From a virus, in IMG/VR virus record IMGVR_UViG_3300025141_011788, positions 3,949 to 67,948 of that record: a stretch of DNA of 64,000 nucleotides; one strand, 5' to 3'. The translations under genes and the position numbers were made by a program. How positions within the stretch are numbered: position 1 is the stretch's first letter; each line of letters opens with the position of its first letter. The notes beneath the pieces are model-generated. The model did not search any database, was not told the origin of the DNA, and was given only the letters and a program-made list of their open reading frames with translations. Positions 2,187-50,763 of the stretch are shown here, in pieces.

Positions 2187-2225
2187 CTTGTTTCTCCCCA
2201 GGAGGTCTATCCCTCCCGCATATTA

Positions 2226-2254
2226 TTTATACCACGGATAGAGCAGGTGTCAAG
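2226..2254 (-). promoter_or_regulatory. early promoter
   Basis: CTTGAC-N17-TATAAA with TCCGTGG before -10. Confidence 0.85.
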
Positions 2255-2264
2255 TTTTTACCCT

Positions 2265-2297
2265 AATAAAAGCAAAGCCCAGCACGATGGCTGGGCT
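2265..2297 (-). terminator. Rho-independent terminator
   Basis: AGCCCAGC-CATCGT-GCTGGGCT hairpin followed by TTGCTTTTAT. Confidence 0.65.
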
Positions 2298-2366
2298 CTA
2301 CCTTGTAACCAACACAGGCCAAGGGGGAAGATCAATAAAAAACCCCTTAGCCTGACTCCGGAAGGT

Positions 2367-7838: not shown

Positions 7839-8249
7839 TCACACTTCGTAGTCAACAAGCCAGGCGTAACGACGACGGCCAATTGATAAGTACTCGGGAT
7901 CATCTTCTGCCATATAGGCTTCTTGTTCTGCTCGGATTCTATGATACGCCTTGTTGGCGGCAGAGGTAAACTTATGACCTCGAATACTCAATTGACCTTG
8001 CCAATTATGGAAGTATCTAATCAAGCCATGTAGGTAATCCCAAACATAAACAATGATCATCCCAAATAAGAACATTTCTAATGTCTGCTGGAAGTGTATC
8101 GTTTCATGTCGTCGAGTGGTGTCGTCTACCTCTCCCCTCGCAAACACAACAAAAAACATCGTAATGGCGGCGATGTTTAGAGGTGCCACTTTGGAGAGCC
8201 ACACGGGCACTCTTGAATTCTCTATGAAGATAGGTTTCCAGTTTCTCAT
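7839..8249 (-). CDS. HExxH metallopeptidase-like protein
   Basis: RRHETIHFQQ motif and downstream EQEAY. Confidence 0.6.
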   Translation of the reverse strand: MRNWKPIFIENSRVPVWLSKVAPLNIAAITMFFVVFARGEVDDTTRRHETIHFQQTLEMFLFGMIIVYVWDYLHGLIRYFHNWQGQLSIRGHKFTSAANKAYHRIRAEQEAYMAEDDPEYLSIGRRRYAWLVDYEV

Positions 8250-8250
8250 C

Positions 8251-10218: not shown

Positions 10219-10488
10219 TTACTTGTTTGTTTCTTCGTTGTCCCGAACTATCAGGTCAACATCCGCACTGTCTGTTTCCAACTCAATCCATACTCTTGCT
10301 CCGCAACTTAATGGTTTATGAGGGCTGTAAACTACACGGGCTAGCTCGACACCTTCTTTAGTCTTTATTACCGCTTCATGAGCATAACAGTTTTCTTTGT
10401 AGGTTTTAACTGTTAATACTGGCTCGTCAGTTCCGTGCTTTGTGTTTCGCTTGATAACGTGTTGATTGACGTGGATTATCTTTTTCAT
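10219..10488 (-). CDS. conserved phage hypothetical protein
   Basis: IHVNQHVIKRN...PLSCGARVWIE pattern. Confidence 0.7.
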   Translation of the reverse strand: MKKIIHVNQHVIKRNTKHGTDEPVLTVKTYKENCYAHEAVIKTKEGVELARVVYSPHKPLSCGARVWIELETDSADVDLIVRDNEETNK

Positions 10489-10498
10489 TTTGATCAGC

Positions 10499-12109
10499 CT
10501 AATCGACGAACCCTGGGAGCACAGACTGCTGTGGACACGATTCTATTGGAAGAGCGGCACGGTCATCTTCTGTCACGAGGGACTCTTGCTGTTCCTGCTC
10601 ACGGGAACGCTCAAATTCTTCAGGTTCCATTGTTCTCTTAGGTTTGTGAGTTTCCGTGGATAGCACTTGCAGGTTCTCGACCTCATTGCTGCCCCCGAGG
10701 CTCAGAGGATAATTGTGATCGACATCAGTCTCACGCTTCTTTATCATCACTGGTGTGACCTCTTCATCAACCTTGAGTTGACCTAAGTGAATGAGATCCT
10801 CTTGTTGCTTATGGGTTAACTGCTTGCGCTTGTGTTTTACAACCACCTCTCCGGCATCATTCTTCCATTCAATTGGGTTGTTTTTAGTCTTCTCCAAGAT
10901 GTATGTATTTATTGTTTCCCATCTAAACTTGACCGCATTTGGTCGCCAGACATCATCTGTAGCAGCTTTGTAGTCTGTCTCTACTGGGACTGGTAGAGTT
11001 TTAAGTTTTGCCTTGTCTCCCTTACGGTCAGCAATTGCCCAGGCTTCGAAGTCTTTGGGGTCCATCATGATGGTCCTTAGTCGATTATCCATTTGAGTAA
11101 ACACGTCTCTGAGGATATAATCTTCATCCTTAATTTGGAGTTTGTTTTTATAAATGGATACAGCAGTTAGGAACATCTCCATGATATCTGTGTTAGAGAT
11201 ATTAATATATTCCCCATCCTTCTCGTGAGTCTCCCACAATTTCATGAAGTAGTTGTCATAAAAATCATCCCACTTCTTGATGTAATCTGGGTCATTGCCC
11301 TTTTTGCCTTTATAGAATGGTGTGAGCATCTTATCGTTAGTAGCTCGGGTTTTAATAAGTGCGCTATCCACAAGTAACGACAGAAAAAGACGAGAATAGC
11401 CTGCAAAGTACTCGTGCATCTTGTGGCGTTTGTACCAATCACTAGATACATTGATTTTTGCATCTGCTGCAACCCACGCTTTAGTACGGATGTTATTACA
11501 GATATCTGTTCCATACCCATTGCGAATTTCGGCTTTTCGGGGTGGCTTTCCTGAATTAATTGCGTTAAAAAGACCTCGATAACTGGCGAGGCTGATTTTA
11601 TCATACACAAATACTGGAATCTCTGTGTTTGCAATGTAAGTTTGCATTGCGTGACTCAATTGAGAAAAAGTAACGCTATTCTGTCCAGTAGCACCAAAAA
11701 TATCTGGATGTTGCATCCCGAACTGCTCAGATGGGGTAAAAGCATACCGATCTGCAAGAAAGTCCAACAAGCAATCCAGCGCACGGTTTTGACCGTCTAC
11801 TGTAGAGTAAGGTTGTAATTGATATTCGTCAACTAGTTCTTGAAAGTATTCCTTGTCTTTTGGGGTCAGCCCTTTAACGCCAAGTACACGTCCGATATCG
11901 ACCAGAACAATACTTGCCTGATGGAATCCTAAGAGGATACTCTCAATAAAGCTGTTTCGGTCTTCATCATCCCAGCACTTCTCTCGCTGGATCTTTCTAT
12001 CAATAAAGAACTCATCCACAAAAGGGACTTCTCCGTTCGGATCCCTGTCTCGGACCAGTTGAGCGATCGTAACACCGAGGGTGTAATAACTAATTCTTGG
12101 TTTAAACAT
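10499..12109 (-). CDS. DUF262 (ParB/Srx-fold) plus C-terminal HNH nuclease, GmrSD-like
   Basis: QR..W...FIESIL.G and DGQNR motifs; C-terminal DVDHNYPLSLGGSNEVENLQVL HNH. Confidence 0.75.
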   Translation of the reverse strand: MFKPRISYYTLGVTIAQLVRDRDPNGEVPFVDEFFIDRKIQREKCWDDEDRNSFIESILLGFHQASIVLVDIGRVLGVKGLTPKDKEYFQELVDEYQLQPYSTVDGQNRALDCLLDFLADRYAFTPSEQFGMQHPDIFGATGQNSVTFSQLSHAMQTYIANTEIPVFVYDKISLASYRGLFNAINSGKPPRKAEIRNGYGTDICNNIRTKAWVAADAKINVSSDWYKRHKMHEYFAGYSRLFLSLLVDSALIKTRATNDKMLTPFYKGKKGNDPDYIKKWDDFYDNYFMKLWETHEKDGEYINISNTDIMEMFLTAVSIYKNKLQIKDEDYILRDVFTQMDNRLRTIMMDPKDFEAWAIADRKGDKAKLKTLPVPVETDYKAATDDVWRPNAVKFRWETINTYILEKTKNNPIEWKNDAGEVVVKHKRKQLTHKQQEDLIHLGQLKVDEEVTPVMIKKRETDVDHNYPLSLGGSNEVENLQVLSTETHKPKRTMEPEEFERSREQEQQESLVTEDDRAALPIESCPQQSVLPGFVD

Positions 12110-13094
12110 ATTTTAATTCTCCTGTTGATGTCTTATTATTAAATTTATTCGCCATGATCGAAATGGCATCTGGGTTTTTTTCAAACAATAGAGCCTTGCG
12201 GCCAAGATTCCGAGCGGCAACACCTGTGGTTCCCGCACCCGCCATCGGGTCCAGAACAATATCACCTAGGTCTGTCGTCATCTCAATGATCCTCTCGACG
12301 AGCTTTACTGGCTTCTGAGTGGGGTACTTCCGCTCTTGATCACCCATGGCAATCGAGTGAATATCATCCCACAAGTTTGTTGCAGGCTTCCCCTTTGACT
12401 CGTGCTTGTATATCTTCCTGTACAGTTTAGAGCCATTTTTAGATGGGATATGTACCCGGTCTTCTGCAATGAGGTCTTCTAAACCCTCTCTTGAGACCCG
12501 CCAGCCAAACGGTGCTGTGTAGTCTACACCCTCTATCGACATTTTATAATATCGATCATCTCTTCCCGTCTTCTGGGTTGCGGTGTAGGTCAGATGGCCC
12601 AGGGCATAGTTTCCCCGGCTATCCTTGTTCTTGTATGAGTTCTCTGCATAATAGGCATCTAACGGTTGATAAACTAAGTTATACTTTGGCTTTTTCTTGC
12701 CTGAGCACCAGAAGATAACATCAGTTACTGCCCCTAGTTTATTCTTCACATTGTTCTTTGACCGACATCTGTTCCAGAAGATGGGTTGAACCTTTTTGAA
12801 GTGTTTCTGACAAAGAATGTGAGGGATCAACATCTCCTCAGCAGAGATATGAAAGAAAAGTGACCCATCAGGTTTAAGAATACGCCGTGCCTCTTCAAGA
12901 ATAGGCTCAACGAGGTCGATGTACTCATTATCAGAACTGAAAACATCACTGAAGCCGATTGCGTCCTCCTCGGTGTTCAGACGGAAATCGTTTCCCGTGT
13001 TGAACGGAGGGTCAAAATAAACAGTGGCGATCGAGTGACCAGGGACCTCTTTTATAAGTTCCCTGGCGTCACCCAGAAGATATCGGATATCCAT
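12102..13094 (-). CDS. beta-class N6A/N4C DNA methyltransferase
   Basis: Motif IV DPPF precedes YPTQKP and motif I LDPMAGAGTT. Confidence 0.92.
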   Translation of the reverse strand: MDIRYLLGDARELIKEVPGHSIATVYFDPPFNTGNDFRLNTEEDAIGFSDVFSSDNEYIDLVEPILEEARRILKPDGSLFFHISAEEMLIPHILCQKHFKKVQPIFWNRCRSKNNVKNKLGAVTDVIFWCSGKKKPKYNLVYQPLDAYYAENSYKNKDSRGNYALGHLTYTATQKTGRDDRYYKMSIEGVDYTAPFGWRVSREGLEDLIAEDRVHIPSKNGSKLYRKIYKHESKGKPATNLWDDIHSIAMGDQERKYPTQKPVKLVERIIEMTTDLGDIVLDPMAGAGTTGVAARNLGRKALLFEKNPDAISIMANKFNNKTSTGELKYV

Positions 13095-13120
13095 ATTCTA
13101 CTCCTTAAACCTTGAAGCTA

Positions 13121-13960
13121 TTATAACACAAATGTTTGCGCATCTTTAATCTGTTCTAACATCTTCTCTGGTTCGTCCTGTTGAATTTTGATCGACACTA
13201 CTGAGCTATTGTTTCTGGACCATTTTTTTCCGGCAAGATGTGCGCCCATGCCGTTATTAAGGGTAACACGCAGGCGTAAATAGGTATCGTGAATACTGCC
13301 GTTGGGCAGCTTACACCAAATGCGCTGAGATGCCGAACGATTCTTCTTCAAGAAAAAGGAAACGTTTGGATTGTTCAGCAATCCAACCAGGGGAAGTTCC
13401 CTATTGACTTCAAACCACACCGATTTCTTTTCCGGATAATGAACAGCTACATAGAAATCACTTTCCTGGGTGTATTTCTCAAACGCCTGAGATAAAATGA
13501 CCCTGAGCATTGCCGGAGTGATATCATTCAAACACCCGTTGGCGATCCTGTTATATTCAGCCCGATAGGGCGCAACGAGAGATTTAACCTCTTTCTCGTT
13601 TTCGGATCTGGTAATTACAGAGCCCCGATGGATTCCCTTTGTTGACCTGTAGTACTCACGCACTGGGCTCAGGGCGGTGTCTAAAGAGGGTAAACTCGCA
13701 GCAACCCTAGCAAGAGTGGTGTTTACCCAGTCAAAAGTCCCCCCGTTGCCCGAGCGAGTCTTCACTGATACCCCTAGCTTTTGACCCGTTTGACGAGCAA
13801 TGCGGATGTCTGCCTTGTTCGCTGTGCCCCCGAGGTGGCAAGCAGATTTCACCCCGCCCAGGTACGTCTGTAGTTTCGGGTTGGCTCCGATTTGGCTAAG
13901 AATAATTTTCTCGCCAGCAATGCCGTTGTAGTGGCCGATCCCATTAGTCTGAAAAGGCAT
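13121..13960 (-). CDS. putative PD-(D/E)XK restriction endonuclease
   Basis: E...KADI...GVSVK catalytic pattern; adjacent to MTase; start MPFQ after GGAGGAG. Confidence 0.6.
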   Translation of the reverse strand: MPFQTNGIGHYNGIAGEKIILSQIGANPKLQTYLGGVKSACHLGGTANKADIRIARQTGQKLGVSVKTRSGNGGTFDWVNTTLARVAASLPSLDTALSPVREYYRSTKGIHRGSVITRSENEKEVKSLVAPYRAEYNRIANGCLNDITPAMLRVILSQAFEKYTQESDFYVAVHYPEKKSVWFEVNRELPLVGLLNNPNVSFFLKKNRSASQRIWCKLPNGSIHDTYLRLRVTLNNGMGAHLAGKKWSRNNSSVVSIKIQQDEPEKMLEQIKDAQTFVL

Positions 13961-13967
13961 TATTCCC

Positions 13968-14080
13968 TCTCCTCCTGTCGGGTTCATCCCGACCATAACT
14001 TAATATATCAAAGGTTCTCACACCCGTCAAGTTTTTATTTTAGTGTTTCCCGAACTTTAATCGATCGAGTTGAAATCACG
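13968..14080 (-). repeat. direct repeat copy A (promoter, 5' hairpin, RBS, remnant of upstream gene end)
   Basis: About 90% identical to 15641-15752 by manual alignment; contains TTGACG-N17-TATATT and a GTCGGG-ATGAA-CCCGAC hairpin. Confidence 0.95.
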
Positions 14081-14089
14081 ACGGACTCA

Positions 14090-14857
14090 TCAGCAATGCG
14101 ATGCCCCGAGGGTTTTAACAATTGCGGAGGGCTTAAACTTAAACTGTAGGTTAGTAGGGGAGCCTGTACCGCCCTTCCTCTGAACAGTGATGAAGGCGCC
14201 GAGAGATAAAGAACCCCTAGGGGAGATGGAAACGTTTCCAGCTCCAAGATAAAACCCCACAACTTTGTCCATAGGGATGAGATAATACCCTGGCTTCTCA
14301 CCGTTGGTGATCTTGGTGATGATCATATAATCTGGCCTTTGTTTATGTGAGCCGCAAAAGATATGATCTACGATCTTTCCTGAGTTGTCTCGAAAGAAGC
14401 CTAAGGTGTCCTCTACATACCTCTCTTTAATTTCCCGTAAGGTCGCTCGCTTACGACTCCTGGTGTGGTTGACATCTTTTGCAAGAACATCAGGATTATC
14501 ACAAGGTAACACCGAGCCAGTGAACACTTCTAGACACTCTCGAACAGTATCGGTGAAGCCAAATGATTTATGATAGCTGTCAACTGAAGACCTTGCAACA
14601 TGGTTATAGTCAGCACCAGGCATATATTTCTTTGCAGACACCAACCTACTCTCGCCCTTGATAATAAGCTCAATGTCTGCCTTTACTGTACCTGGAATTT
14701 TAGTGGCTGTAACGTCACCAGCTAGCAGTTCGGACGGCTCGAAACCCATCTGGCGTAGCATTTCTTGAGCCTCAGGGTGGTCTTCAAAACTCTTGAACAT
14801 CTCGACAAGACGATATTCGTTATCGTAGCCAGATTTTGCGATCTCAGATCCGTTCAT
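14090..14857 (-). CDS. MspI/HinP1I-family type II restriction endonuclease
   Basis: GSEIAKSGYDNE, KADI...VSAK, QRKGG and LQFK motifs typical of this family. Confidence 0.7.
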   Translation of the reverse strand: MNGSEIAKSGYDNEYRLVEMFKSFEDHPEAQEMLRQMGFEPSELLAGDVTATKIPGTVKADIELIIKGESRLVSAKKYMPGADYNHVARSSVDSYHKSFGFTDTVRECLEVFTGSVLPCDNPDVLAKDVNHTRSRKRATLREIKERYVEDTLGFFRDNSGKIVDHIFCGSHKQRPDYMIITKITNGEKPGYYLIPMDKVVGFYLGAGNVSISPRGSLSLGAFITVQRKGGTGSPTNLQFKFKPSAIVKTLGASHC

Positions 14858-14861
14858 GACC

Positions 14862-15635
14862 TCATTCCCCTGTTCTTTTCAATCGATCAACCGATTCTTC
14901 AAAATAAACCTCATCAAGCTCAAAGCCGATATAGCGTCTATTAAGCTTTTTTGCAACGGCTGGTGTCGTGCCGCTTCCACAAAAAGGGTCAAGGACTAGA
15001 TCGCCAGGGTTTGAACTTGCCTTGATAATTCGCTCAAGCACCTCCTCCGGCATCTGACAGGGGTGACTCTTAACCCTCTCCTTGAATGTGCCACAGAGTC
15101 TCGACATCTGCCAGGTATCATCTGGGACTTTTCCCTTGCTGTTCGCTCGCTTGTCGTTATATTTCAGCTGTCTCGCAGAGGGCACCCTGATTTCATCAAC
15201 ATTGAAAGTAAAGTCCTTGGGGTTTTTTGTGAAATAGTGGATGTGAGTGTGAGTTCGGCTAAACTTCTTTCTACAATTTTGACCGAAGGTATAGTACCAG
15301 ATAATCCAGTTTCTAAAACTTAAGCCACCGTCCTTCAAGATAATATTTAGTTCAGCAGCATATTCATCGCCAATAGCAACATACATCGACCCGTTAGGTT
15401 TCAATACCCGCACACACTCACTCACCCACTTACTTGACCATTCTTTGTAATCCTCGTAAGGCTTATCATCCTTGTAGGAGTTGTACGAATAGCCGATGTT
15501 GAATGGCGGGTCGGCAAATACCAGATCAACACTTCCAGAATCCAAGTGCTTTAAAAGCTCAAGGCTGTCTCCAAGGTAGATGTTGTCTTTCTTAACTAGA
15601 CCTGGGAAGGTTGATCGCAGTCTGCCCCTGTTCAT
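14862..15635 (-). CDS. beta-class N4C/N6A DNA methyltransferase
   Basis: FADPPFN, HPCQMP, LDPFCGSGTT. Confidence 0.93.
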   Translation of the reverse strand: MNRGRLRSTFPGLVKKDNIYLGDSLELLKHLDSGSVDLVFADPPFNIGYSYNSYKDDKPYEDYKEWSSKWVSECVRVLKPNGSMYVAIGDEYAAELNIILKDGGLSFRNWIIWYYTFGQNCRKKFSRTHTHIHYFTKNPKDFTFNVDEIRVPSARQLKYNDKRANSKGKVPDDTWQMSRLCGTFKERVKSHPCQMPEEVLERIIKASSNPGDLVLDPFCGSGTTPAVAKKLNRRYIGFELDEVYFEESVDRLKRTGE

Positions 15636-15640
15636 CTTCT

Positions 15641-15752
15641 TCTCCTTCTGTCGGGTTCATCCGACCATAACTTAATATATCAAAGGTTTCTTGATCAGTC
15701 AAGTTTTTACTTTAGTGTTCCCCGAACTTTAATCGATCGAGTTGAAATCACG
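15641..15752 (-). repeat. direct repeat copy B
   Basis: Matches 13968-14080; includes the real 3' end of the gene at 15729-16094. Confidence 0.95.
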
Positions 15753-16094
15753 GAAGATTTGTTGAGGTTTAACCTTTTTCCACTGGATTGTTCGGTAAGG
15801 CTTCCTAGTGACCTTCGTCGAAATCAAACTCTGTTCATCCGAGACGCTAAAGACAAACTTGCACACTTCTAGCCGTTGCTTGATGTCTTCCAGCACTTCC
15901 GGGTGGCTCTCCTCCCTCCCCGCAAACACTAGCATCATGCAGTAGCGATTAAACTCGCTCATTTCCTTCGTCCGTACCTCTATCTGTTGACAACATTGTT
16001 GGCCTTTTATTGGGGTTGAGGTCGAGGCACAGCCGGATAGCAGGACAAGAAAGATACCAATACTGATGGCTTTCATCTTATTACTTAACTCCAA
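15729..16094 (-). CDS. Cys-rich lipoprotein
   Basis: Lipobox LLSGC; paralog of the adjacent gene. Confidence 0.7.
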   Translation of the reverse strand: MELSNKMKAISIGIFLVLLSGCASTSTPIKGQQCCQQIEVRTKEMSEFNRYCMMLVFAGREESHPEVLEDIKQRLEVCKFVFSVSDEQSLISTKVTRKPYRTIQWKKVKPQQIFRDFNSID

Positions 16095-16323
16095 AAACTT
16101 GCTTGCAAGCTGCGAGGCCTTGATTAATATTTAACATCGCCTTCGAATCGTCGTTGTATAGAGACTTGGCGTAGGATAAGAAAAGGCAAAGTTTTTTATA
16201 TTTCTTCATCTCTCGATCCCGGACGCTCAGTCGTTGCTCGCAACTAGTTGGCGAGGGTGGAGGCCCAACTGTCGCAAAACAAGCCGGGGTTGCCAAAAGG
16301 GTAATAGCTAGCAGATACTTCAT
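16081..16323 (-). CDS. Cys-rich lipoprotein or secreted protein
   Basis: MKYLLAITLLATPAC; shares the C..VR..EM...C...CK.VF.V pattern with its neighbour. Confidence 0.65.
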   Translation of the reverse strand: MKYLLAITLLATPACFATVGPPPSPTSCEQRLSVRDREMKKYKKLCLFLSYAKSLYNDDSKAMLNINQGLAACKQVFGVK

Positions 16324-16649
16324 TTGTTCACGCTCCTTAAGCGGTCCACAGGTAGGCATACCTTGCCGCTGCCTGGGGCTCCTTTAATGTATGAGTTCTT
16401 GTTAAAGATGATAGTCGCCCAACCATGGCTATAGATCGTGCCCTCGCCAACAGGTGCCGGGGCAGGGGGCAGGTTGCCGTCAATGGACATCACCACCCCC
16501 ACCGCTCCAAGTTTGACCAGATAAGGTCGGCCATGTCTCACCCCTGACTCCTGAAAAGCACGGAAGTACTTGGGATCGGGTAAGTCTGGGTCTTCTAGTT
16601 CTAGTTTAACTAGATCTCCTGGCTTAAGCAGACGAGGAACTGGACTCAA
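16320..16649 (-). CDS. KOW/SH3-like protein
   Basis: LKPGDLVKL...GVVM. Confidence 0.65.
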   Translation of the reverse strand: MSPVPRLLKPGDLVKLELEDPDLPDPKYFRAFQESGVRHGRPYLVKLGAVGVVMSIDGNLPPAPAPVGEGTIYSHGWATIIFNKNSYIKGAPGSGKVCLPVDRLRSVNK

Positions 16650-16653
16650 TGGA

Positions 16654-16965
16654 CTACTGGCTCCAACGATCGCTGATGATTAGAAAACTGCCATCAACCA
16701 AGTCTTCATCCGTGAGGCGGGAGGCTTGTTCGTCGCCTAGCAACTGAACTACAACTTTCTTGATTGCAATTCCGTTCTTACGAAAGTTATATTCCCCTCG
16801 ATATTCCCCTTCGGTTAGGGCCGACTTGAGCCGTTCAAGTTGAGCTAGGCGAGCTGTCACTACTCGTGCTCGAAATTCATGAGCCCCTTCTTCGTTACTG
16901 AAGTTCGCAATGAGTTTTCGGCCTGGTCCTAGGACTGTCCAATAGATTAGTTCGTTTTCGTTCAT
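16654..16965 (-). CDS. hypothetical protein
   Basis: Preceded by a TTGATA-N17-TACAAT promoter (about 16985-17015) and AAAGGG RBS. Confidence 0.65.
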   Translation of the reverse strand: MNENELIYWTVLGPGRKLIANFSNEEGAHEFRARVVTARLAQLERLKSALTEGEYRGEYNFRKNGIAIKKVVVQLLGDEQASRLTDEDLVDGSFLIISDRWSQ

Positions 16966-17010
16966 CTTATCCCTTTCGCACTCTCATTGTATCAAAGGTC
17001 TTTTCGTTTA

Positions 17011-17274
17011 TCAAGTTTTATTTTCGAAGTATTTTCTCTTGGTCTCTGGGTTCTGTTTCTTCAGCCAATATTCTAATCTCAATGCCTCTCCGTGTTCCAT
17101 TGGTTCGGAGTGGTTTATTAATATTGTTTGTTTTCCCCGAGTTTGTTTTACTTTGTTGTTTTGGTGGTCTTTCAGTCGTTTGGATACATCCTTAGCGATG
17201 CCGACGTGAAGTGTAATGCGGTTTGTTTTCTCGGTCGTACACTGTAAGATGTAGACAGAATAGAGGTTAGTCAC
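17011..17274 (-). CDS. GIY-YIG nuclease (small, UPF0213-like)
   Basis: VYILQC...LHVGIAKDVSKRLKDH...EALRLEYWLK; likely GTG start at 17274. Confidence 0.8.
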   Translation of the reverse strand: MTNLYSVYILQCTTEKTNRITLHVGIAKDVSKRLKDHQNNKVKQTRGKQTILINHSEPMEHGEALRLEYWLKKQNPETKRKYFENKT

Positions 17275-17470
17275 TAACGAGTTCCAAGCACCCGACAATG
17301 ACCCTCTCGTCATAGGTGCCGTCAGACCAAGTAACGTCAGCAAGGAGAGTCTCTTGATCGTCGTCACTATACCATTCAAGATTAGTGACAAGACCACAGG
17401 TTCGAAGGTGCTGCTCGTCTGACCAGCGATACCCAACATACTCTACAATTGATCCAACTCGCATTACCAC
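17267..17470 (-). CDS. KOW/SH3-like protein
   Basis: MRVGSIVEY...GLV...VTWSDG. Confidence 0.65.
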   Translation of the reverse strand: MVMRVGSIVEYVGYRWSDEQHLRTCGLVTNLEWYSDDDQETLLADVTWSDGTYDERVIVGCLELVSD

Positions 17471-29870: not shown

Positions 29871-31460
29871 TTATTCTTTGGTTTCCCGCAAAACGGCGCA
29901 GTTGGTCGTAAGGAGGGTTCCGGCTGCTGAAACAGCGTTGCGTAGGGCAGACTTAGTGACCTTCACGGGGTCTAAGACGCCCGATTCAATAAGGTCTTCG
30001 AACCGCCCAGTTTTTACATTAAAACCGAAGTTTTCTTCTAGCTCCGAGCTTGGATCGTCGAGAGTTGCCAGTACAAGGTCTGAAGAGATTCCTGCATTGG
30101 CTAGGATCTGCTTTACAGGTGCCCGACAAGCACTGACTACAACCTGGGCTCCCATGACCTGATCTCGGTTTTCTAGCTCCAATTTGAGCCCACGGGTGGT
30201 CGTAACCAAGGCAGTGCCACCGCCGGGGACAACCCCCTCCTCTTGAGCAGAGCGGACTGCCTCTAGAGCATCCTCAATTCTGTGTGTCTTTTCAGTCACT
30301 TCGATCTCAGTCGCACCTCCGACACGAATGACTGATACTCCAGAGGCTAAACGAGTGATTCGCTCCTGGGTTCTCTCAGCTTCATGAAGGTTTTCGGTAC
30401 TTGCAACCTCAGCACGGAGCGATTCTACTCGGTCGTCAATTGATTCAGGAGTTCCCGAACCGCCAGCAAGAGTCGTATGATTCTTTAGAACCTCAATGCT
30501 GCTGACTTCTCCAAGATGTTCTAGCTTGATGTCCTTGATCCGGATAGGCTGGTCCTTACTAATAAAGGTTGCCCCTACGGTGACAGCTAGGTCCGATAGG
30601 AGGTTCCGACGTTCTTCACCGTAACGAGGTGCCTTAACTGCGGCGACCTTCATGCCGCCCCGCATTCGGTTCATAATCAAGGCTGCTAGCAGCTCCCCTT
30701 CAATGCTTTCGGCAAAGATGACGAGTGGTCGGCCGTCCCTAGCTGCTACTTCTAACAGAGGAAGCATCTCGTTAAGATCGCCGAGAGACTCATCAGTTAC
30801 CAAGACTAGGGCATTTTTATATACTACAGCACCTCGGCGCTCATCCGTAATAAACTGAGGAGAGGCATAACCCGCAGGTAATTGAAAACCCTCGATTACA
30901 TCTAGGCTTGTCTCTAGTGACCGACTTTCCTCGATAGTGACTGCGCCGTCTTTTCCGGCTGCGGCGACTGCCGAAGCAATGAGCGTGCCGATGGCAGCGT
31001 CGCCGTTAGCAGAGACAGTGGCGATATGAGCAATATCCTCTTCACTTGAAATTGGCTGGGATAGTGTGTCGAGAGCTTCGAGGACGCCTACCACTGCCGA
31101 GTCCATACCTCGCTTAAGTTCTACTGAATTACACCCAGCGGCAATATGCTTATGTGACTCGTTCAGAACCGCACGAGCTAATACGGTAGAGGTAGTGGTC
31201 CCGTCGCCGGCTGAATCATTTGTAGCAAGGGACGCTTGGCGGATTACATCTGCTCCCGCATTTTCAAAGTCATCAGCCAACTCGACAACACGAGCAACAG
31301 ATACGCCGTCCTTAGTGATTACCGGTGGCTTTCCTCGCTGATAGAGAATGACGTTTTGACCGCCAGGTCCAAGTGTTGAGGCGACAGCATCGGCAAGCTT
31401 GTTGGCGCCAGATAGTAGTTTTTGGCGAATTTCATCGCCGAACAAGATGTTGTTACTCAT
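29871..31460 (-). CDS. groEL: chaperonin GroEL
   Basis: TLGPGG, ITKDGVSVA, GDGTTT, GVVPGGG, DPVKV. Confidence 0.97.
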   Translation of the reverse strand: MSNNILFGDEIRQKLLSGANKLADAVASTLGPGGQNVILYQRGKPPVITKDGVSVARVVELADDFENAGADVIRQASLATNDSAGDGTTTSTVLARAVLNESHKHIAAGCNSVELKRGMDSAVVGVLEALDTLSQPISSEEDIAHIATVSANGDAAIGTLIASAVAAAGKDGAVTIEESRSLETSLDVIEGFQLPAGYASPQFITDERRGAVVYKNALVLVTDESLGDLNEMLPLLEVAARDGRPLVIFAESIEGELLAALIMNRMRGGMKVAAVKAPRYGEERRNLLSDLAVTVGATFISKDQPIRIKDIKLEHLGEVSSIEVLKNHTTLAGGSGTPESIDDRVESLRAEVASTENLHEAERTQERITRLASGVSVIRVGGATEIEVTEKTHRIEDALEAVRSAQEEGVVPGGGTALVTTTRGLKLELENRDQVMGAQVVVSACRAPVKQILANAGISSDLVLATLDDPSSELEENFGFNVKTGRFEDLIESGVLDPVKVTKSALRNAVSAAGTLLTTNCAVLRETKE

Positions 31461-48802: not shown

Positions 48803-49879
48803 TCAACTTTCTTTTTCAGCCGTCTTAAGAACTGTCTCTTGATCTAGGATCTGGAGTACTCGCTCCTTGAACCCTTCATCTTCGAGCATAGAAAGCCAAT
48901 GACCTTGTTGGAACTTCTTAGACATGGATCCATCTGAGTACTCCAGAGTCTTCCAAGTAGTGCCGTGAACGTAGTCAGAGTCTTTAATTGCTTCAAGCCA
49001 ACTTTCTTCATCTTGGATCCCGACTTTATCGCCGCCCCATAAGATCTGGAATTTACACTTGCGACCTTGGGTCCCTCCACGAGACTTTTCGATCTTTGCC
49101 ATTACGGATGAGCCGATGCGCTCGCCAAGGGAGTTCTCAATGAAAGATGCTCGGGCTTTGCGGCCGGTGAGCCAGATTCGCAAAGTATAAGCATACAAGA
49201 GGGCTTTTCCACCAGGGGTGAAATAAGGGGTAGTCAATGCCTCGGCTGGTGTCTTTGGGATGTTGACCCGAAGTTGGTTAATCACCAAAAGGGAGTGCTG
49301 ACCTGCGTTGAGCGGGTTCAGTAGTCGTTGAAGACCAGAGCCGCAAATCTTTGGCTTGCGGAGCATACCACCAGCATTTGGGTTCAATGTCTCTGACTCA
49401 TTATCTGCGACGCACGGAGTAAACGCTAGGCTGTCCCACACAAAGAGCACTTGGTTTTCAGTCTGGGCAATAACAGCATCAATAGTGTTGAAAACAAACT
49501 CTACCGAAGTTGCTGGGATATAAAGAAGTTGGTCTAAATTGATCCCCGACTTTTCTAGAAAGGCGGCATCAATGGCTGATTCTGAATCAAAGTAGACGAC
49601 ATCCATCCCCATTTTTTGGGCATTGACGGCTGCTTGGACCGCCATATAACTCTTGCCAGTTGCCTCAAGACCTGCGACCTCTGAGATCTTCCCTACCGGG
49701 AATCCTGCTCGGGTGCCCTGCTTAATGATATTATCCAGCCAGCGAGAGCCAGTTGGAATCCAATCAGTAACGGTTGAAGGATCGTTCTCGGTGAGATTAT
49801 ATGAAACCTCAGCCTTTTTATTCAACATAGCCTTCAGTGCCTGAAGGTTGCTATGGGATTTCTTTGCTTTTGTAGCCAT
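48803..49879 (-). CDS. recA: RecA/UvsX recombinase
   Basis: IPTGS, GLEATGKS, FDSE, WDSL, INQLR, TPGGKAL. Confidence 0.92.
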   Translation of the reverse strand: MATKAKKSHSNLQALKAMLNKKAEVSYNLTENDPSTVTDWIPTGSRWLDNIIKQGTRAGFPVGKISEVAGLEATGKSYMAVQAAVNAQKMGMDVVYFDSESAIDAAFLEKSGINLDQLLYIPATSVEFVFNTIDAVIAQTENQVLFVWDSLAFTPCVADNESETLNPNAGGMLRKPKICGSGLQRLLNPLNAGQHSLLVINQLRVNIPKTPAEALTTPYFTPGGKALLYAYTLRIWLTGRKARASFIENSLGERIGSSVMAKIEKSRGGTQGRKCKFQILWGGDKVGIQDEESWLEAIKDSDYVHGTTWKTLEYSDGSMSKKFQQGHWLSMLEDEGFKERVLQILDQETVLKTAEKES

Positions 49880-49977: not shown

Positions 49978-50763
49978 TTAACTTAGCAGCTCGTTAAAAG
50001 CATCGTCAATATCAGTCACGGCGCCTGAATCGCCCTTAGCTGCTTTAGCTGTCTCGGCAGAACTGTTACCGAACTTAACAGTTTCGCTGCTGTTTTCTTC
50101 AGCAGTAGCTTCCGTGCCGAGTGTCTCCTCAAGGACAGCAGCAACCTGTGCCGTGGTTCGGCGCTCAAAGTGGTCGTCGAAGTTGGGCATGGTAGCCACT
50201 AGCTTGCTAATCTCTTCGTCCGTCTCAGCCAACGGAGTGGTTTTACGAGCAGGGCGAACATCCGTAGTTGGCCAACTCTGGCCGGCAGCCTTACCGTAGT
50301 CGATGCGAAGGTCAGTGCCCTCGTGGACATCGGTGATGTCACCGTACTCAGGATCAAGAACGATACCCATCAGCTTCTCATAAGTGGTTTTTGAGAAGCC
50401 CCAGAGTCTAACACCCTTGTCTTCTTCTCCTCGAACCACTACAGGTGCGAAAACTCGCATTTTAGCGAAATAGTTACGGGCAAGGGTCTTCTCCTCGTCA
50501 GAACCGTTCCAAAGCTGATTGGCGAATGAACAGACAGGGCAGTCATCGCCGTAGTTTCGCTGTGGACACAATAGGTTAGTGCGTTCGTTGGCGCCTAGGC
50601 TATAGTGAAAATGAAGGTCACAGAAGGGATCGCCATCCGCTGGCACCACTAGGCGAATTACCTGAGTGCCGTCTTGAGGTTTCCAGAAGGACTCGTTAGT
50701 GTTTCCGCCCTTGTTAGTAAGTTTCGCATACTTCTCTCGCATGCGAGCAATGTCCAAAGCCAT
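49978..50763 (-). CDS. single-stranded DNA-binding protein (T4 gp32-like)
   Basis: FWKP...IRLV, C..CPVC Zn site, YGDITD...GTD, acidic tail DIDDAFNELL; TTGACA-N17-TATATT promoter at about 50850-50878. Confidence 0.88.
   Translation of the reverse strand: MALDIARMREKYAKLTNKGGNTNESFWKPQDGTQVIRLVVPADGDPFCDLHFHYSLGANERTNLLCPQRNYGDDCPVCSFANQLWNGSDEEKTLARNYFAKMRVFAPVVVRGEEDKGVRLWGFSKTTYEKLMGIVLDPEYGDITDVHEGTDLRIDYGKAAGQSWPTTDVRPARKTTPLAETDEEISKLVATMPNFDDHFERRTTAQVAAVLEETLGTEATAEENSSETVKFGNSSAETAKAAKGDSGAVTDIDDAFNELLS

What the first reader, a model, noticed from the sequence alone, without database searches (positions are those of the whole stretch)
13968..15752. RM cassette bracketed by a 112-113 bp direct repeat that carries its own promoter
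Seen: 13968-14080 and 15641-15752 align with three substitutions, one indel and one divergent 9-bp block confined to the -35/-10 spacer. Each copy holds the last 24 nt of the upstream lipoprotein gene (RDFNSID-stop; coding only in copy B), the TCGGG motif, the promoter, a 5' stem-loop and an AGGAG RBS. Recombination between copies would excise a circle of about 1.67 kb with promoter, MTase and REase, leaving the locus intact with the second RM operon. Inference: integrase-free stacking of defence cassettes at a fixed promoter by homologous recombination, with spacer change tuning expression.
Basis: partly seen in the sequence, partly recalled or inferred. Interest (0 to 1): 0.78.

Follow-up and report, generated by a model that had tools for sequence, protein, structure and literature searches.

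The report
Restriction cassette flanked by duplicated phage promoter
An uncultured marine phage carries a restriction-modification gene pair flanked by two copies of a 112-base promoter unit, a layout already known to let phages gain and lose genes by ordinary recombination, so it is a clean new example and not a new mechanism.

Summary
The repeat is real. Copy A (13968-14080) and copy B (15641-15752) lie on the minus strand, 1672 nt apart. They differ by 10 substitutions and 1 indel, and 7 of the substitutions fall in one 9-nt block at the -35/spacer.

Each copy holds:
- the last 24 nt of the upstream lipoprotein gene (non-coding in copy A);
- a TCGGGRAAC box;
- a sigma70-type promoter (TTGACN-17-TATATT);
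- a small 5' hairpin and an RBS.

Between the copies lie an N6/N4 methyltransferase and a HinP1I-family endonuclease. Behind copy A come a second HinP1I-fold endonuclease, a second methyltransferase and a DUF262/HNH protein.

The host record is a 68-kb fragment of an uncultured marine phage. It has a RecA/UvsX-like and a gp32-like gene; no integrase or resolvase was found in it.

Relatives carry different genes at this site, and the same promoter-hairpin-RBS module precedes four different genes. One relative has a single chimeric promoter where another has a gene flanked by two promoter copies.

This matches PeSL promoter cassettes of T4-type phages and the "insertion with long target duplication" known for bacterial restriction systems.

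No deletion or circle junction of this cassette was seen, and expression tuning was not tested. The scan has found PeSL-like arrays before on other DNA.

The parts
15641..15752 (-). Repeat copy B. It holds the coding 3' end of the lipoprotein gene (24 nt), a TCGGGGAAC box, an A-rich tract, the promoter, a hairpin and the RBS in front of methyltransferase M1.
13968..14080 (-). Repeat copy A. It is the same unit, with the 24-nt lipoprotein tail non-coding, and sits in front of the 279-aa endonuclease gene.
15674..15702 (-). Sigma70-type promoter of copy B: TTGACT, 17 nt, TATATT, with TG before the -10. A consensus match only.
14002..14030 (-). Sigma70-type promoter of copy A: TTGACG, 17 nt, TATATT, with TG before the -10. 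A consensus match only.
15650..15665 (-). 5'-leader hairpin of copy B (5 bp, -7.8 kcal/mol).
   Evidence: also kept in L010 and L014
13977..13993 (-). 5'-leader hairpin of copy A (6 bp, -12.4 kcal/mol).
14862..15635 (-). M1, a 257-aa N6/N4 DNA methyltransferase; first gene of the flanked cassette.
   Evidence: Pfam PF01555 1.1e-61; PHROG 67; 85% aa identity to the methyltransferase in L065
14090..14857 (-). R1, a 255-aa HinP1I-family restriction endonuclease; second gene of the flanked cassette.
   Evidence: Pfam PF11463 6.9e-18; 62% aa identity to the neighbour of the L065 methyltransferase
13121..13960 (-). R2, a 279-aa protein with a HinP1I-like PD-(D/E)XK endonuclease fold; first gene behind copy A.
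   Evidence: No Pfam, PHROG or NCBIfam hit. 191 distant relatives. AF2 pLDDT 93.4. Foldseek 2fkc_A E 1.2e-6. VIA Z 11.7, 208 residues aligned, rmsd 4.0.
12102..13094 (-). M2, a 330-aa N6/N4 DNA methyltransferase.
   Evidence: Pfam PF01555 1.2e-42; about 35% local identity to M1
10499..12109 (-). 536-aa protein with a weak DUF262/GmrSD_N-like N-terminal part and an HNH-like C-terminal part; last gene of the variable block.
   Evidence: Pfam PF03235 4.1e-4, below the cut-off; PHROGs 2598, 1583 and HNH families
15729..16076 (-). Conserved upstream flank: a lipoprotein-like 115-aa gene whose last 24 nt start the repeat.
10219..10488 (-). Conserved downstream flank: an 89-aa gene, 81-87% identical in relatives L003, L004 and L005.
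16986..17014 (-). Third promoter of the same subfamily (TTGATA, 17 nt, TACAAT). It shares AAAACTTGA and ACCTTTGATA but not the rest of the repeat.
48803..49879 (-). RecA/UvsX-like recombinase, a candidate enzyme for recombination between the copies.
   Evidence: Pfam PF00154 1.4e-21
49978..50763 (-). gp32-like single-strand DNA-binding protein.
   Evidence: Pfam PF08804 2.8e-14

Best explanation
The two copies are a duplicated early-expression unit of a marine phage. The unit consists of the end of the lipoprotein gene, an upstream box, a strong sigma70-type promoter, a small leader hairpin and an RBS. The methyltransferase-endonuclease pair M1-R1 was added in front of an existing R2-M2-DUF262/HNH operon. 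This happened by recombination inside that unit, with one illegitimate join between the R1 3' flank and the lipoprotein tail. The result is a restriction-modification insertion with a 112-bp target duplication, in which each operon keeps its own promoter. The locus lies in a variable region where nearly every gene has its own promoter of one family. Related phages have exchanged, lost and gained genes there by crossovers inside these promoter units, as with the PeSL cassettes of T4-type phages. The two copies share exact tracts of 32 and 28 nt. They are therefore substrates for the phage's own RecA/UvsX-gp32 recombination, which would delete the 1672-bp unit, or release or amplify it.

Shown: the repeat, the gene content, the promoter family, the variable cargo, the chimeric promoter in a relative, and the same module before four different genes.

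Inferred: the order of events, excision or a circle, re-insertion, and any effect of the spacer block on expression.
For: - The repeat and its parts are documented.
- The non-coding lipoprotein tail in copy A is 24 of 24 identical. It has no evident function there, so it marks descent by duplication and not convergence.
- The phage has a promoter family. AAAACTTGAY with up to 1 mismatch occurs 25 times against 12 expected, and 22 of the 25 are on the gene strand. TCGGGRAAC occurs 7 times against 1.1 expected. The sites were aligned.
- Cargo is variable. In L003 the genes on both sides are syntenic (43-93% aa), but window 10489-15728 is replaced by 2.9 kb of other genes. L007 passes from the lipoprotein gene directly to the homologue of window 8019-8250. 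L005 has a 1113-aa helicase-methylase protein behind its lipoprotein gene. L014 has another methyltransferase beside the module.
- A natural recombinant exists. L003 and L010 have an 88-aa gene between two 54-nt promoter copies (87% identical). L008 lacks the gene and has one promoter. Its upstream half equals copy 1 and its downstream half equals copy 2, with the switch inside a shared 20-nt core.
- The promoter-hairpin-RBS module is 84-95% identical in L010 and L014 and precedes other genes.
- The M1-R1 pair also occurs, in the same order, in an unrelated viral contig context (L065).
- RecA/UvsX-like and gp32-like genes are present. No integrase or resolvase was found in the record.
- The known mechanisms are described in PMC2839356 (sections 13, 16 and 20 read) and PMC2853133 (passages).
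Against: - No deletion, circle or tandem junction of this cassette was seen. The contigs of four runs gave no joint skipping 1672 nt, and exact junction patterns gave 0 hits in IMG/VR. Contigs cannot show rare forms, so this is not strong.
- The stacked form is present at or near 100% identity in runs from other samples (X2, X3, X4), so it looks stable.
- No close relative with an empty or alternatively filled site behind the very same repeat was found. The nearest relatives have only 57-59% lipoprotein identity.
- Seven of the ten substitutions cluster in 9 nt (P about 1e-5). A simple recent duplication does not explain this.
- The hairpin is small, carries no T-run and is not called as a terminator, unlike the terminator function shown for PeSL stem-loops.
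- The record is only about 37% complete, so a recombinase elsewhere in the genome cannot be excluded.
Confidence: 0.7

Rival explanations
1. This is a static scar. A single unequal or illegitimate crossover between two co-infecting variants with alternative cargo at this locus stacked the two operons. The duplicated promoter is kept only because each operon needs one, and there is no ongoing excision, circle or re-insertion.
For: The stacked form is seen unchanged in three further runs. No junction of a deleted or circular form was found. The promoter-to-RBS part is conserved even between distant phages, so its likeness could be functional. The divergent 9-nt block breaks the homology into tracts of 32 nt or less.
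Against: In the relatives, the same kind of promoter pair did recombine, as the chimeric L008 promoter shows. Exact tracts of 32 and 28 nt remain, and the phage encodes RecA/UvsX-like and gp32-like proteins. For T4, PMC2839356 cites patches under 50 bp as sufficient (passage).
Confidence: 0.2
2. This is an assembly chimera. Two strains, one with the lipoprotein gene, promoter, M1 and R1 and one with the lipoprotein gene, promoter, R2 and M2, were joined through the shared 32-mer, so the tandem arrangement does not exist on one molecule.
For: Logan contigs of the probable source run break exactly at the shared stretch (records 5, 6 and 7). The only full-length supports (the window and L006) come from the same assembly or sample.
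Against: The lipoprotein tail follows the R1 3' flank on the cassette contig itself (14051-15750). In another sample, a 151-nt contig without mismatch links copy A's specific part to the R1 flank (X3 record 20). Depths of the cassette and its flanks are alike (16.1, 23.1 and 25.6). The shared tract of 32 nt is shorter than a read.
Confidence: 0.04
3. The mechanism is site-specific and integron-like. The conserved hairpin or the TCGGGRAAC box is the site of a dedicated recombinase or nuclease encoded elsewhere in the phage, which inserts and excises cassettes.
For: The module is more conserved (84-95% nt) than the neighbouring proteins (42-59% aa). The TCGGGRAAC box recurs 7 times against 1.1 expected. 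Only about 37% of the genome is in the record. A GIY-YIG endonuclease gene lies 1.3 kb upstream.
Against: No tyrosine or serine recombinase is found in the 68 kb. The L008 crossover lies in the shared promoter core, not at the hairpin or box. The L003 and L008 versions of the module lack the hairpin.
Confidence: 0.05

Closest known systems
PeSL (promoter-early stem-loop) cassettes of T4-type phages (Arbiol et al. 2010, PMC2839356; Comeau et al. 2014, PMC4122927)
   Same: Both are conserved units of about 100 bp that run from the stop codon of the upstream gene, through an A-rich tract and a sigma70-like early promoter with a stem-loop, to the Shine-Dalgarno sequence of the next gene. They are dense in a variable region. 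Genes flanked by two units are missing in relatives that carry one chimeric unit. No integrase is involved. The predicted product is a small circle carrying the gene plus one unit.
   Different: The phage has a DnaE-type polymerase and no close cultured relative, though it has UvsX-, gp32- and T4-baseplate-like genes. The hairpin is a small leader hairpin without terminator features. The cargo is a complete restriction-modification pair and not an ORFan. The word 'restriction' occurs 0 times in PMC2839356 and once, unrelated to cargo, in PMC4122927. Circles have not been demonstrated here.
Insertion of restriction-modification units with long target duplication (Furuta, Abe, Kobayashi 2010, PMC2853133; first described for H. 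pylori in its reference 37, which I did not see)
   Same: An R gene plus an M gene are inserted with no other mobility gene. They are flanked by a direct duplication much longer than 30 bp that overlaps the 3' end of the neighbouring gene. The proposed life cycle is insertion, amplification through the repeats, and release.
   Different: That form was described in bacterial chromosomes, whereas this one is in a lytic-type phage genome. Here the duplicated target is itself a promoter module. No strict empty-site comparison is available for this case.
Phage morons
   Same: An accessory gene unit with its own promoter is inserted between two genes of a phage.
   Different: Morons are defined by their own promoter and terminator, not by flanking direct repeats that allow excision.
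Integron gene cassettes (recalled)
   Same: Promoter-proximal stacking of exchangeable cassettes that can exist as circles.
   Different: Integrons need an IntI tyrosine recombinase and attC/attI sites. No integrase was found in the record, and the crossover seen in a relative lies in plain homology.

Membership tests
PeSL cassettes (PMC2839356) | Sigma70-like early promoter with an AT-rich upstream tract | tested here: met
   TTGACG/TTGACT, 17 nt, TATATT, with TG and an A-rich tract. This is a consensus match only; activity was not tested.
PeSL cassettes (PMC2839356) | Stem-loop within the unit that acts as a terminator or attenuator | tested here: inconclusive
   A 5-6 bp hairpin lies downstream of the -10 (-12.4 and -7.8 kcal/mol, z -1.6 and -2.3). 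It is kept in L010 and L014 and absent in L008. There is no T-run and the scan calls no terminator.
PeSL cassettes (PMC2839356) | Many copies concentrated in a variable region, in front of single genes | tested here: met
   Eleven promoters of one family lie on the gene strand between 1968 and 25105. Gene order around them differs among relatives.
PeSL cassettes (PMC2839356) | Indels between related phages bounded by the units, with one chimeric unit left behind | tested here: met
   This is met for the neighbouring promoter pair in relatives (L003 and L010 against L008). It was not observed for the A/B pair itself.
PeSL cassettes (PMC2839356) | Mini-circles detectable by inverse PCR | not testable with these tools
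   Only contigs were available. There were 0 hits for circle/tandem junction patterns in IMG/VR.
PeSL cassettes (PMC2839356) | Host genome is a T4-type phage | tested here: inconclusive
   The phage has a DnaE-type polymerase with under 32% identity to any isolate. RecA/UvsX-, gp32- and T4_baseplate-like genes are present.
[quoted passage not shown] | Both R and M homologues lie inside the insert | tested here: met
   PF01555 and PF11463 are found between the copies.
[quoted passage not shown] | Insert under 20 kb, duplication over 30 bp, no other mobility gene in the insert | tested here: met
   The unit is 1672 bp and the repeat 112-113 bp. Only two genes lie between the copies.
[quoted passage not shown] | A related genome shows the target as a single copy without the insert | tested here: inconclusive
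   L003, L008 and L010 have a single lipoprotein tail plus promoter. They are only about 67% identical in DNA and carry other cargo. No near-identical empty site was found.
Type II restriction-modification system (cassette 1) | Cognate methyltransferase and endonuclease, adjacent and co-oriented | tested here: met
   The same pair in the same order is found in L065. Specificity and activity are not testable here.
Type II restriction-modification system (cassette 2) | The 279-aa protein is a restriction endonuclease | tested here: inconclusive
   The evidence is a fold match only: R.HinP1I at Z 11.7, with 208 of 247 residues aligned and 14% identity. The protein lies next to a PF01555 methyltransferase. 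There is no sequence-family hit.
Integron / site-specific cassette system | Tyrosine or serine recombinase beside the cassettes | tested here: not met
   PF00589 and PF00239 gave 0 matches in the 67,948-bp record, while the controls matched in 14 and 12 of 14 genomes. The record is about 37% complete.

The most novel reading that the evidence does not exclude
The conserved promoter-hairpin-RBS module would be a portable docking and expression site shared by diverged marine phages. Restriction-modification and other nuclease cassettes would be serially stacked, swapped and released as circles at this site by the phages' own UvsX/gp32 recombination. That would amount to an integrase-free, integron-like store of phage-borne exclusion genes. 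The non-randomly diverged 9-nt -35/spacer block would set cassette-specific expression, for example methylase-first against endonuclease-first operons.
Probability: 0.15. Interest if true: 0.6.

Novelty: new member of a known kind. Interest (0 to 1): 0.35.

Why it matters
This case links two separately described ideas: phage PeSL shuffling and the "long target duplication" mobility of restriction-modification units. It does so in one concrete locus of an uncultured marine phage lineage with a DnaE-type polymerase. It suggests how lytic phages collect restriction systems, probably for excluding rival phages or degrading host DNA, without any integrase. It also offers a compact test case: one 1.67-kb unit with two diagnostic junctions. 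It does not open a new mechanism.

Tried and rejected
- **Phage genome collection:** blastn of 12000-17100 against the phages collection gave no match.
- **Exact 24-nt repeat core:** it gave 0 hits in IMG/VR.
- **224-aa neighbour gene and the 279-aa protein:** neither gave a relative in IMG/VR.
- **R1 against the 279-aa protein:** BLASTP was not significant, so the two endonucleases are not recent duplicates.
- **The 279-aa family in sequence searches:** profile search against PDB sequences and Pfam scans of 60 family members gave only noise.
- **The 536-aa protein against the L008 ORFs:** only a weak N-terminal match was found (E 9e-4). Orthology of the last gene of the block is not established.
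- **Cargo of the relatives:** the L008 and L003 proteins (88, 116, 164, 193 and 377 aa) had no Pfam hit. PHROGs gave only families of unknown function plus a weak ParB-like hit. I therefore cannot say that the relatives' cargo is defence-related.
- **Contigs of runs X1-X4:** no joint skipped the cassette. Contigs drop rare variants, so this says nothing about rare excision. Parts of the stretch without cover in X2-X4 are not evidence either.
- **Deletion and circle/tandem junction patterns:** both gave 0 hits in IMG/VR. These were exact matches only, and the window's own record may be left out of that scan.
- **Idea rejected:** that the promoter-to-RBS likeness alone proves a recent duplication. 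The same module is 84-95% identical in phages whose lipoproteins are 42-59% identical. The evidence for duplication rests on the non-coding lipoprotein tail and the upstream 45 nt.
- **Idea not pursued:** that a TGATCA/GATC site in the spacer of copy B is a methylation switch. GATC and TGATCA are not depleted (O/E 0.94 and 1.07), and the specificities of the methyltransferases are unknown.
- **Not seen:** supplementary files of the PeSL papers (lists of PeSLs and of swapped genes) were not opened. They may name restriction or methylase cargo that I could not see.
- **Search limits:** my two literature searches did not list a phage restriction cassette flanked by promoter repeats. This is not a claim that none is in print.
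Full report
**1. What is there**

All genes around the finding lie on the minus strand. The repeat finder gives two direct copies, 13968-14080 (A) and 15641-15752 (B), with a start-to-start spacing of 1672-1673 nt. The window's own record is an IMG/VR virus contig of 67,948 bp that CheckV rates about 37% complete. It holds exactly these two copies.

A gapped alignment shows 10 substitutions and one 1-nt indel. Seven substitutions sit in one 9-nt block that begins at the last base of the -35 hexamer. In 200,000 random placements, such clustering occurred with P about 1e-5. The longest exact shared tracts are 32, 28, 13 and 12 nt.

Read 5' to 3' on the gene strand, each copy contains:
- 24 nt that encode RDFNSID-stop of the lipoprotein-like gene 15729-16076. 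They are coding in B. In A they lie 9 nt after the stop of the endonuclease gene.
- A TCGGGRAAC box.
- An A-rich tract.
- A promoter, TTGACG or TTGACT, then 17 nt, then TATATT, with TG before the -10.
- A 5-6 bp hairpin.
- An AGGAG-type RBS that ends at the start codon.

**2. Genes**

Between the copies lie M1 and R1:
- M1 (14862-15635) matches PF01555 N6_N4_Mtase at 1.1e-61.
- R1 (14090-14857) matches PF11463 R.HinP1I at 6.9e-18.

Behind copy A come three genes.
- A 279-aa protein (13121-13960) has no hit in Pfam, PHROGs, NCBIfam or PDB sequences.
- M2 (12102-13094) matches PF01555 at 1.2e-42.
- A 536-aa protein has a weak DUF262/GmrSD_N match, below the Pfam cut-off, and HNH-like C-terminal matches.

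The 279-aa protein has 191 distant relatives among 1.84 billion representatives. With 60 of them as alignment, AlphaFold gives pLDDT 93.4. The best structural match is R.HinP1I: Foldseek E 1.2e-6 and TM 0.48/0.53, and VIA Z 11.7 with 208 residues aligned at rmsd 4.0. So "second RM operon" is plausible, on fold and neighbourhood only.

R1 and the 279-aa protein are not alike in sequence. M1 and M2 share about 35% local identity.

**3. The phage**

The window encodes the following:
- a DnaE-type DNA polymerase, a ribonucleotide reductase, a DnaB-like helicase and a GroEL;
- a 5'-3' exonuclease, a RecA/UvsX-like protein, a gp32-like protein and a T4_baseplate-domain protein.

The polymerase has under 32% identity to any isolate in the phage collection. 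No tyrosine or serine recombinase is found in the record, while the controls matched. Runs that hold the stretch are labelled marine, seawater, viral or hydrothermal-vent metagenomes.

**4. Is it an artefact?**

The two copies differ, which a collapsed or doubled assembly would not give.

In the probable source run X1, Logan contigs break at the shared exact stretch, as expected for a repeat in a k-mer graph. The contigs are 13097-14078, 14051-15750 and 15723-17055, at depths of 16.1, 23.1 and 25.6. The cassette contig itself carries the lipoprotein tail after the R1 flank.

In another sample (X3), a 151-nt contig at 13948-14098 has no mismatch and links copy A's specific part to the R1 flank. 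Only 18 nt lie beyond the repeat, which is below the tool's 31-nt rule.

Pieces of the cassette at or near 100% identity also occur in X2 and X4.

L006 is a 92-kb metagenome contig identical to the window over 12,269 bp. It is the same assembly or sample and is not independent.

I rate an assembly chimera at about 0.04.

**5. The promoter family**

AAAACTTGAY with up to one mismatch occurs 25 times against 12 expected, and 22 of the 25 are on the gene strand. TCGGGRAAC occurs 7 times against 1.1 expected.

The aligned sites show a family of early-type promoters in front of single genes between about 1968 and 25105. I kept 11 of the 16 printed sites by eye. Among the 55 pairs of these 11, A/B are 0.90 identical over 90 nt, the next pair is 0.51, and the median is 0.42.

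A third promoter at 16986-17014 shares only the -35 and -10 neighbourhood.

So A/B is a true duplication on top of a general promoter family.

**6. Relatives**

The lipoprotein gene recovered 3 IMG/VR loci and 59 metagenome loci. L006 is the source. L063 is the twin of L003.

I compared 7 of the 59 metagenome loci by blastn. I compared 62 loci, all fetched except L001, L002 and L006, with the repeat by blastn-short.

- **L003** is syntenic on both sides. The GIY-YIG gene is 93% identical in protein, the next four genes 43-59%, and the 89-aa gene 81%. Window 10489-15728 is replaced by 2.9 kb of other genes.
- **L007** passes from the lipoprotein gene directly to the homologue of window 8019-8250.
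- **L005** has a 1113-aa protein behind its lipoprotein gene, with MUG113, ResIII and Eco57I-methylase matches.
- **L004** has an N6_N4 methyltransferase beside the 89-aa homologue.
- **L014** has a 218-aa ORF, an N6_N4 methyltransferase, the module, a 417-aa ORF and the 89-aa homologue.

The site is thus variable, and DNA methyltransferases recur there.

**7. A natural recombinant**

In L003 and L010, an 88-aa gene lies between two 54-nt promoter copies that are 87% identical. L008 lacks this gene and has a single promoter.

The upstream half of that promoter, including the lipoprotein tail, is identical to copy 1. The downstream half is identical to copy 2. The switch lies inside the shared core ATTGACATTGAACGTCAAGA.

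This is the product expected from homologous recombination between flanking promoter repeats, or from the reverse insertion. It lies at the neighbouring position of the same locus.

**8. The same module before other genes**

The promoter-hairpin-RBS part of A/B recurs in relatives:
- in L010, at 95% identity over 58 nt to B and 89% over 73 nt to A, before a 164-aa-family gene;
- in L014, at 84% over 58 nt, before a 417-aa gene;
- in L003 and L008, in a form without the hairpin, at 88% over 42 nt.

In run X4, a contig of depth 48 follows promoter B up to the start codon and then continues with unlike letters (tables 4 and 7).

The module is much better conserved than the neighbouring proteins, which are 42-59% identical. 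Its likeness between A and B is therefore partly functional. The evidence for a duplication is the non-coding 24-nt tail (24 of 24 identical) and the 45 nt upstream of the -35 (43 of 45 identical). L010 and L014 do not share those parts.

In all four aligned modules, the block just after the -35 is the variable part. Even so, 7 of 9 differences beside a perfectly kept non-coding tail is more than drift after one recent duplication would give. I leave this open between three readings:
- two older module alleles joined upstream of the spacer;
- a short conversion patch;
- selection on promoter strength.

**9. Mobility of the cargo**

The same methyltransferase-endonuclease pair occurs in the same order in L065, at 85% and 62% aa identity. 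There it lies between a gene whose reading frame it overlaps and an IMPDH-like region, with no promoter repeat. The pair therefore moves among marine phages by more than one route.

**10. Comparison with what is known**

PeSLs of T4-type phages are units of about 100 bp. They run from the upstream stop codon, through an AT-rich tract and a sigma70-like promoter with a stem-loop, to the Shine-Dalgarno sequence. They are dense in hyperplastic regions. Genes between two PeSLs are missing in relatives that carry one chimeric PeSL. Mini-circles were shown by inverse PCR and filtration. (PMC2839356: abstract and sections 13, 16 and 20 read. PMC4122927: abstract and passages.)

PeSL-like motifs have also been suggested for an archaeal virus (PMC3950731, one passage).

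Separately, restriction-modification units inserted with long target duplications are a described mobile form in bacteria. The criteria are R and M inside, an insert under 20 kb, and a duplication over 30 bp; some duplications overlap the 3' end of a neighbouring gene (PMC2853133, passages).

The present locus meets the structural criteria of both (see Membership tests). It differs in four ways:
- the host is a phage with a DnaE-type polymerase;
- the cargo is a complete restriction-modification pair;
- the hairpin is a leader hairpin, not a terminator;
- no circles or empty site have been shown.

Notes of this scan show that PeSL-like cassette arrays were found before on other DNA. The same restriction island of this genome was also noted before.

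**11. Verdict**

The architecture, the absence of an integrase in the record and the variable cargo hold. Excision or a circle and expression tuning remain inference. The mechanism is a known one.
- Novelty: a new member of a known kind.
- Interest: 0.35.

Noticed in passing
whole window 1-64000: CGCG occurs 0 times where about 125 are expected from a maximal-order Markov estimate. CTCGAG (18.5 expected), GTCGAC (14.1) and GAGCTC (9.9) are also absent, and GGCC, TGCA, ACGT and GCGC are at about half of expectation. Relatives L004, L005 and L014 also have no CGCG, whereas L003, L008 and L010 have 8, 12 and 2.
   Followed up: partly
window 17011-17439 (-); L003:4473-4742: The GIY-YIG/T5orf172 endonuclease gene is 93% identical in protein to its L003 homologue, while the neighbouring genes are 43-59% identical. 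In run X4 this stretch has depth about 150, against 2-10 for its neighbours. It looks like a recently spread homing-type endonuclease gene. Its 3' end overlaps the third promoter.
   Followed up: partly
L003:6040-6559, L010:1450-2010, L008:8309-8439: An 88-aa gene flanked by two 54-nt promoter copies in L003 and L010 is absent in L008, which has one chimeric promoter. The promoter spacer there contains an inverted repeat, TTGACATTGAACGTCAA.
   Followed up: yes
L065:4258-5765: A homologous methyltransferase-endonuclease pair (85% and 62% aa identity) sits in another viral contig next to an IMPDH-like gene, with overlapping reading frames and no promoter repeat. L065 has 0 GCGC in 6.5 kb.
   Followed up: partly
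window 12374-12820: One contig each in runs X1 (depth 5) and X4 (depth 9) joins 12374 to 12820 inside the M2 methyltransferase gene, skipping 445 nt. Only 26 nt lie on the shorter side, so the joint may come from another organism or a relative (table 5).
   Followed up: no
window 2200-2330 (-): The promoter at 2249 is preceded by a GC-rich inverted repeat followed by a T-run, which makes a terminator-plus-promoter unit closer to the classical PeSL layout. This was seen by eye.
   Followed up: no
L008:9340-10777 and L003:7487-8924: Two overlapping ORFs of 193 and 377 aa in different frames occupy the position of the window's 536-aa DUF262/HNH gene. The 193-aa ORF has a weak N-terminal match to it (E 9e-4). 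This may be a frameshifted or programmed-frameshift relative.
   Followed up: no
window 29871-31460 (-): The phage encodes a full-length GroEL-like chaperonin (PHROG 5725, 7e-142).
   Followed up: no
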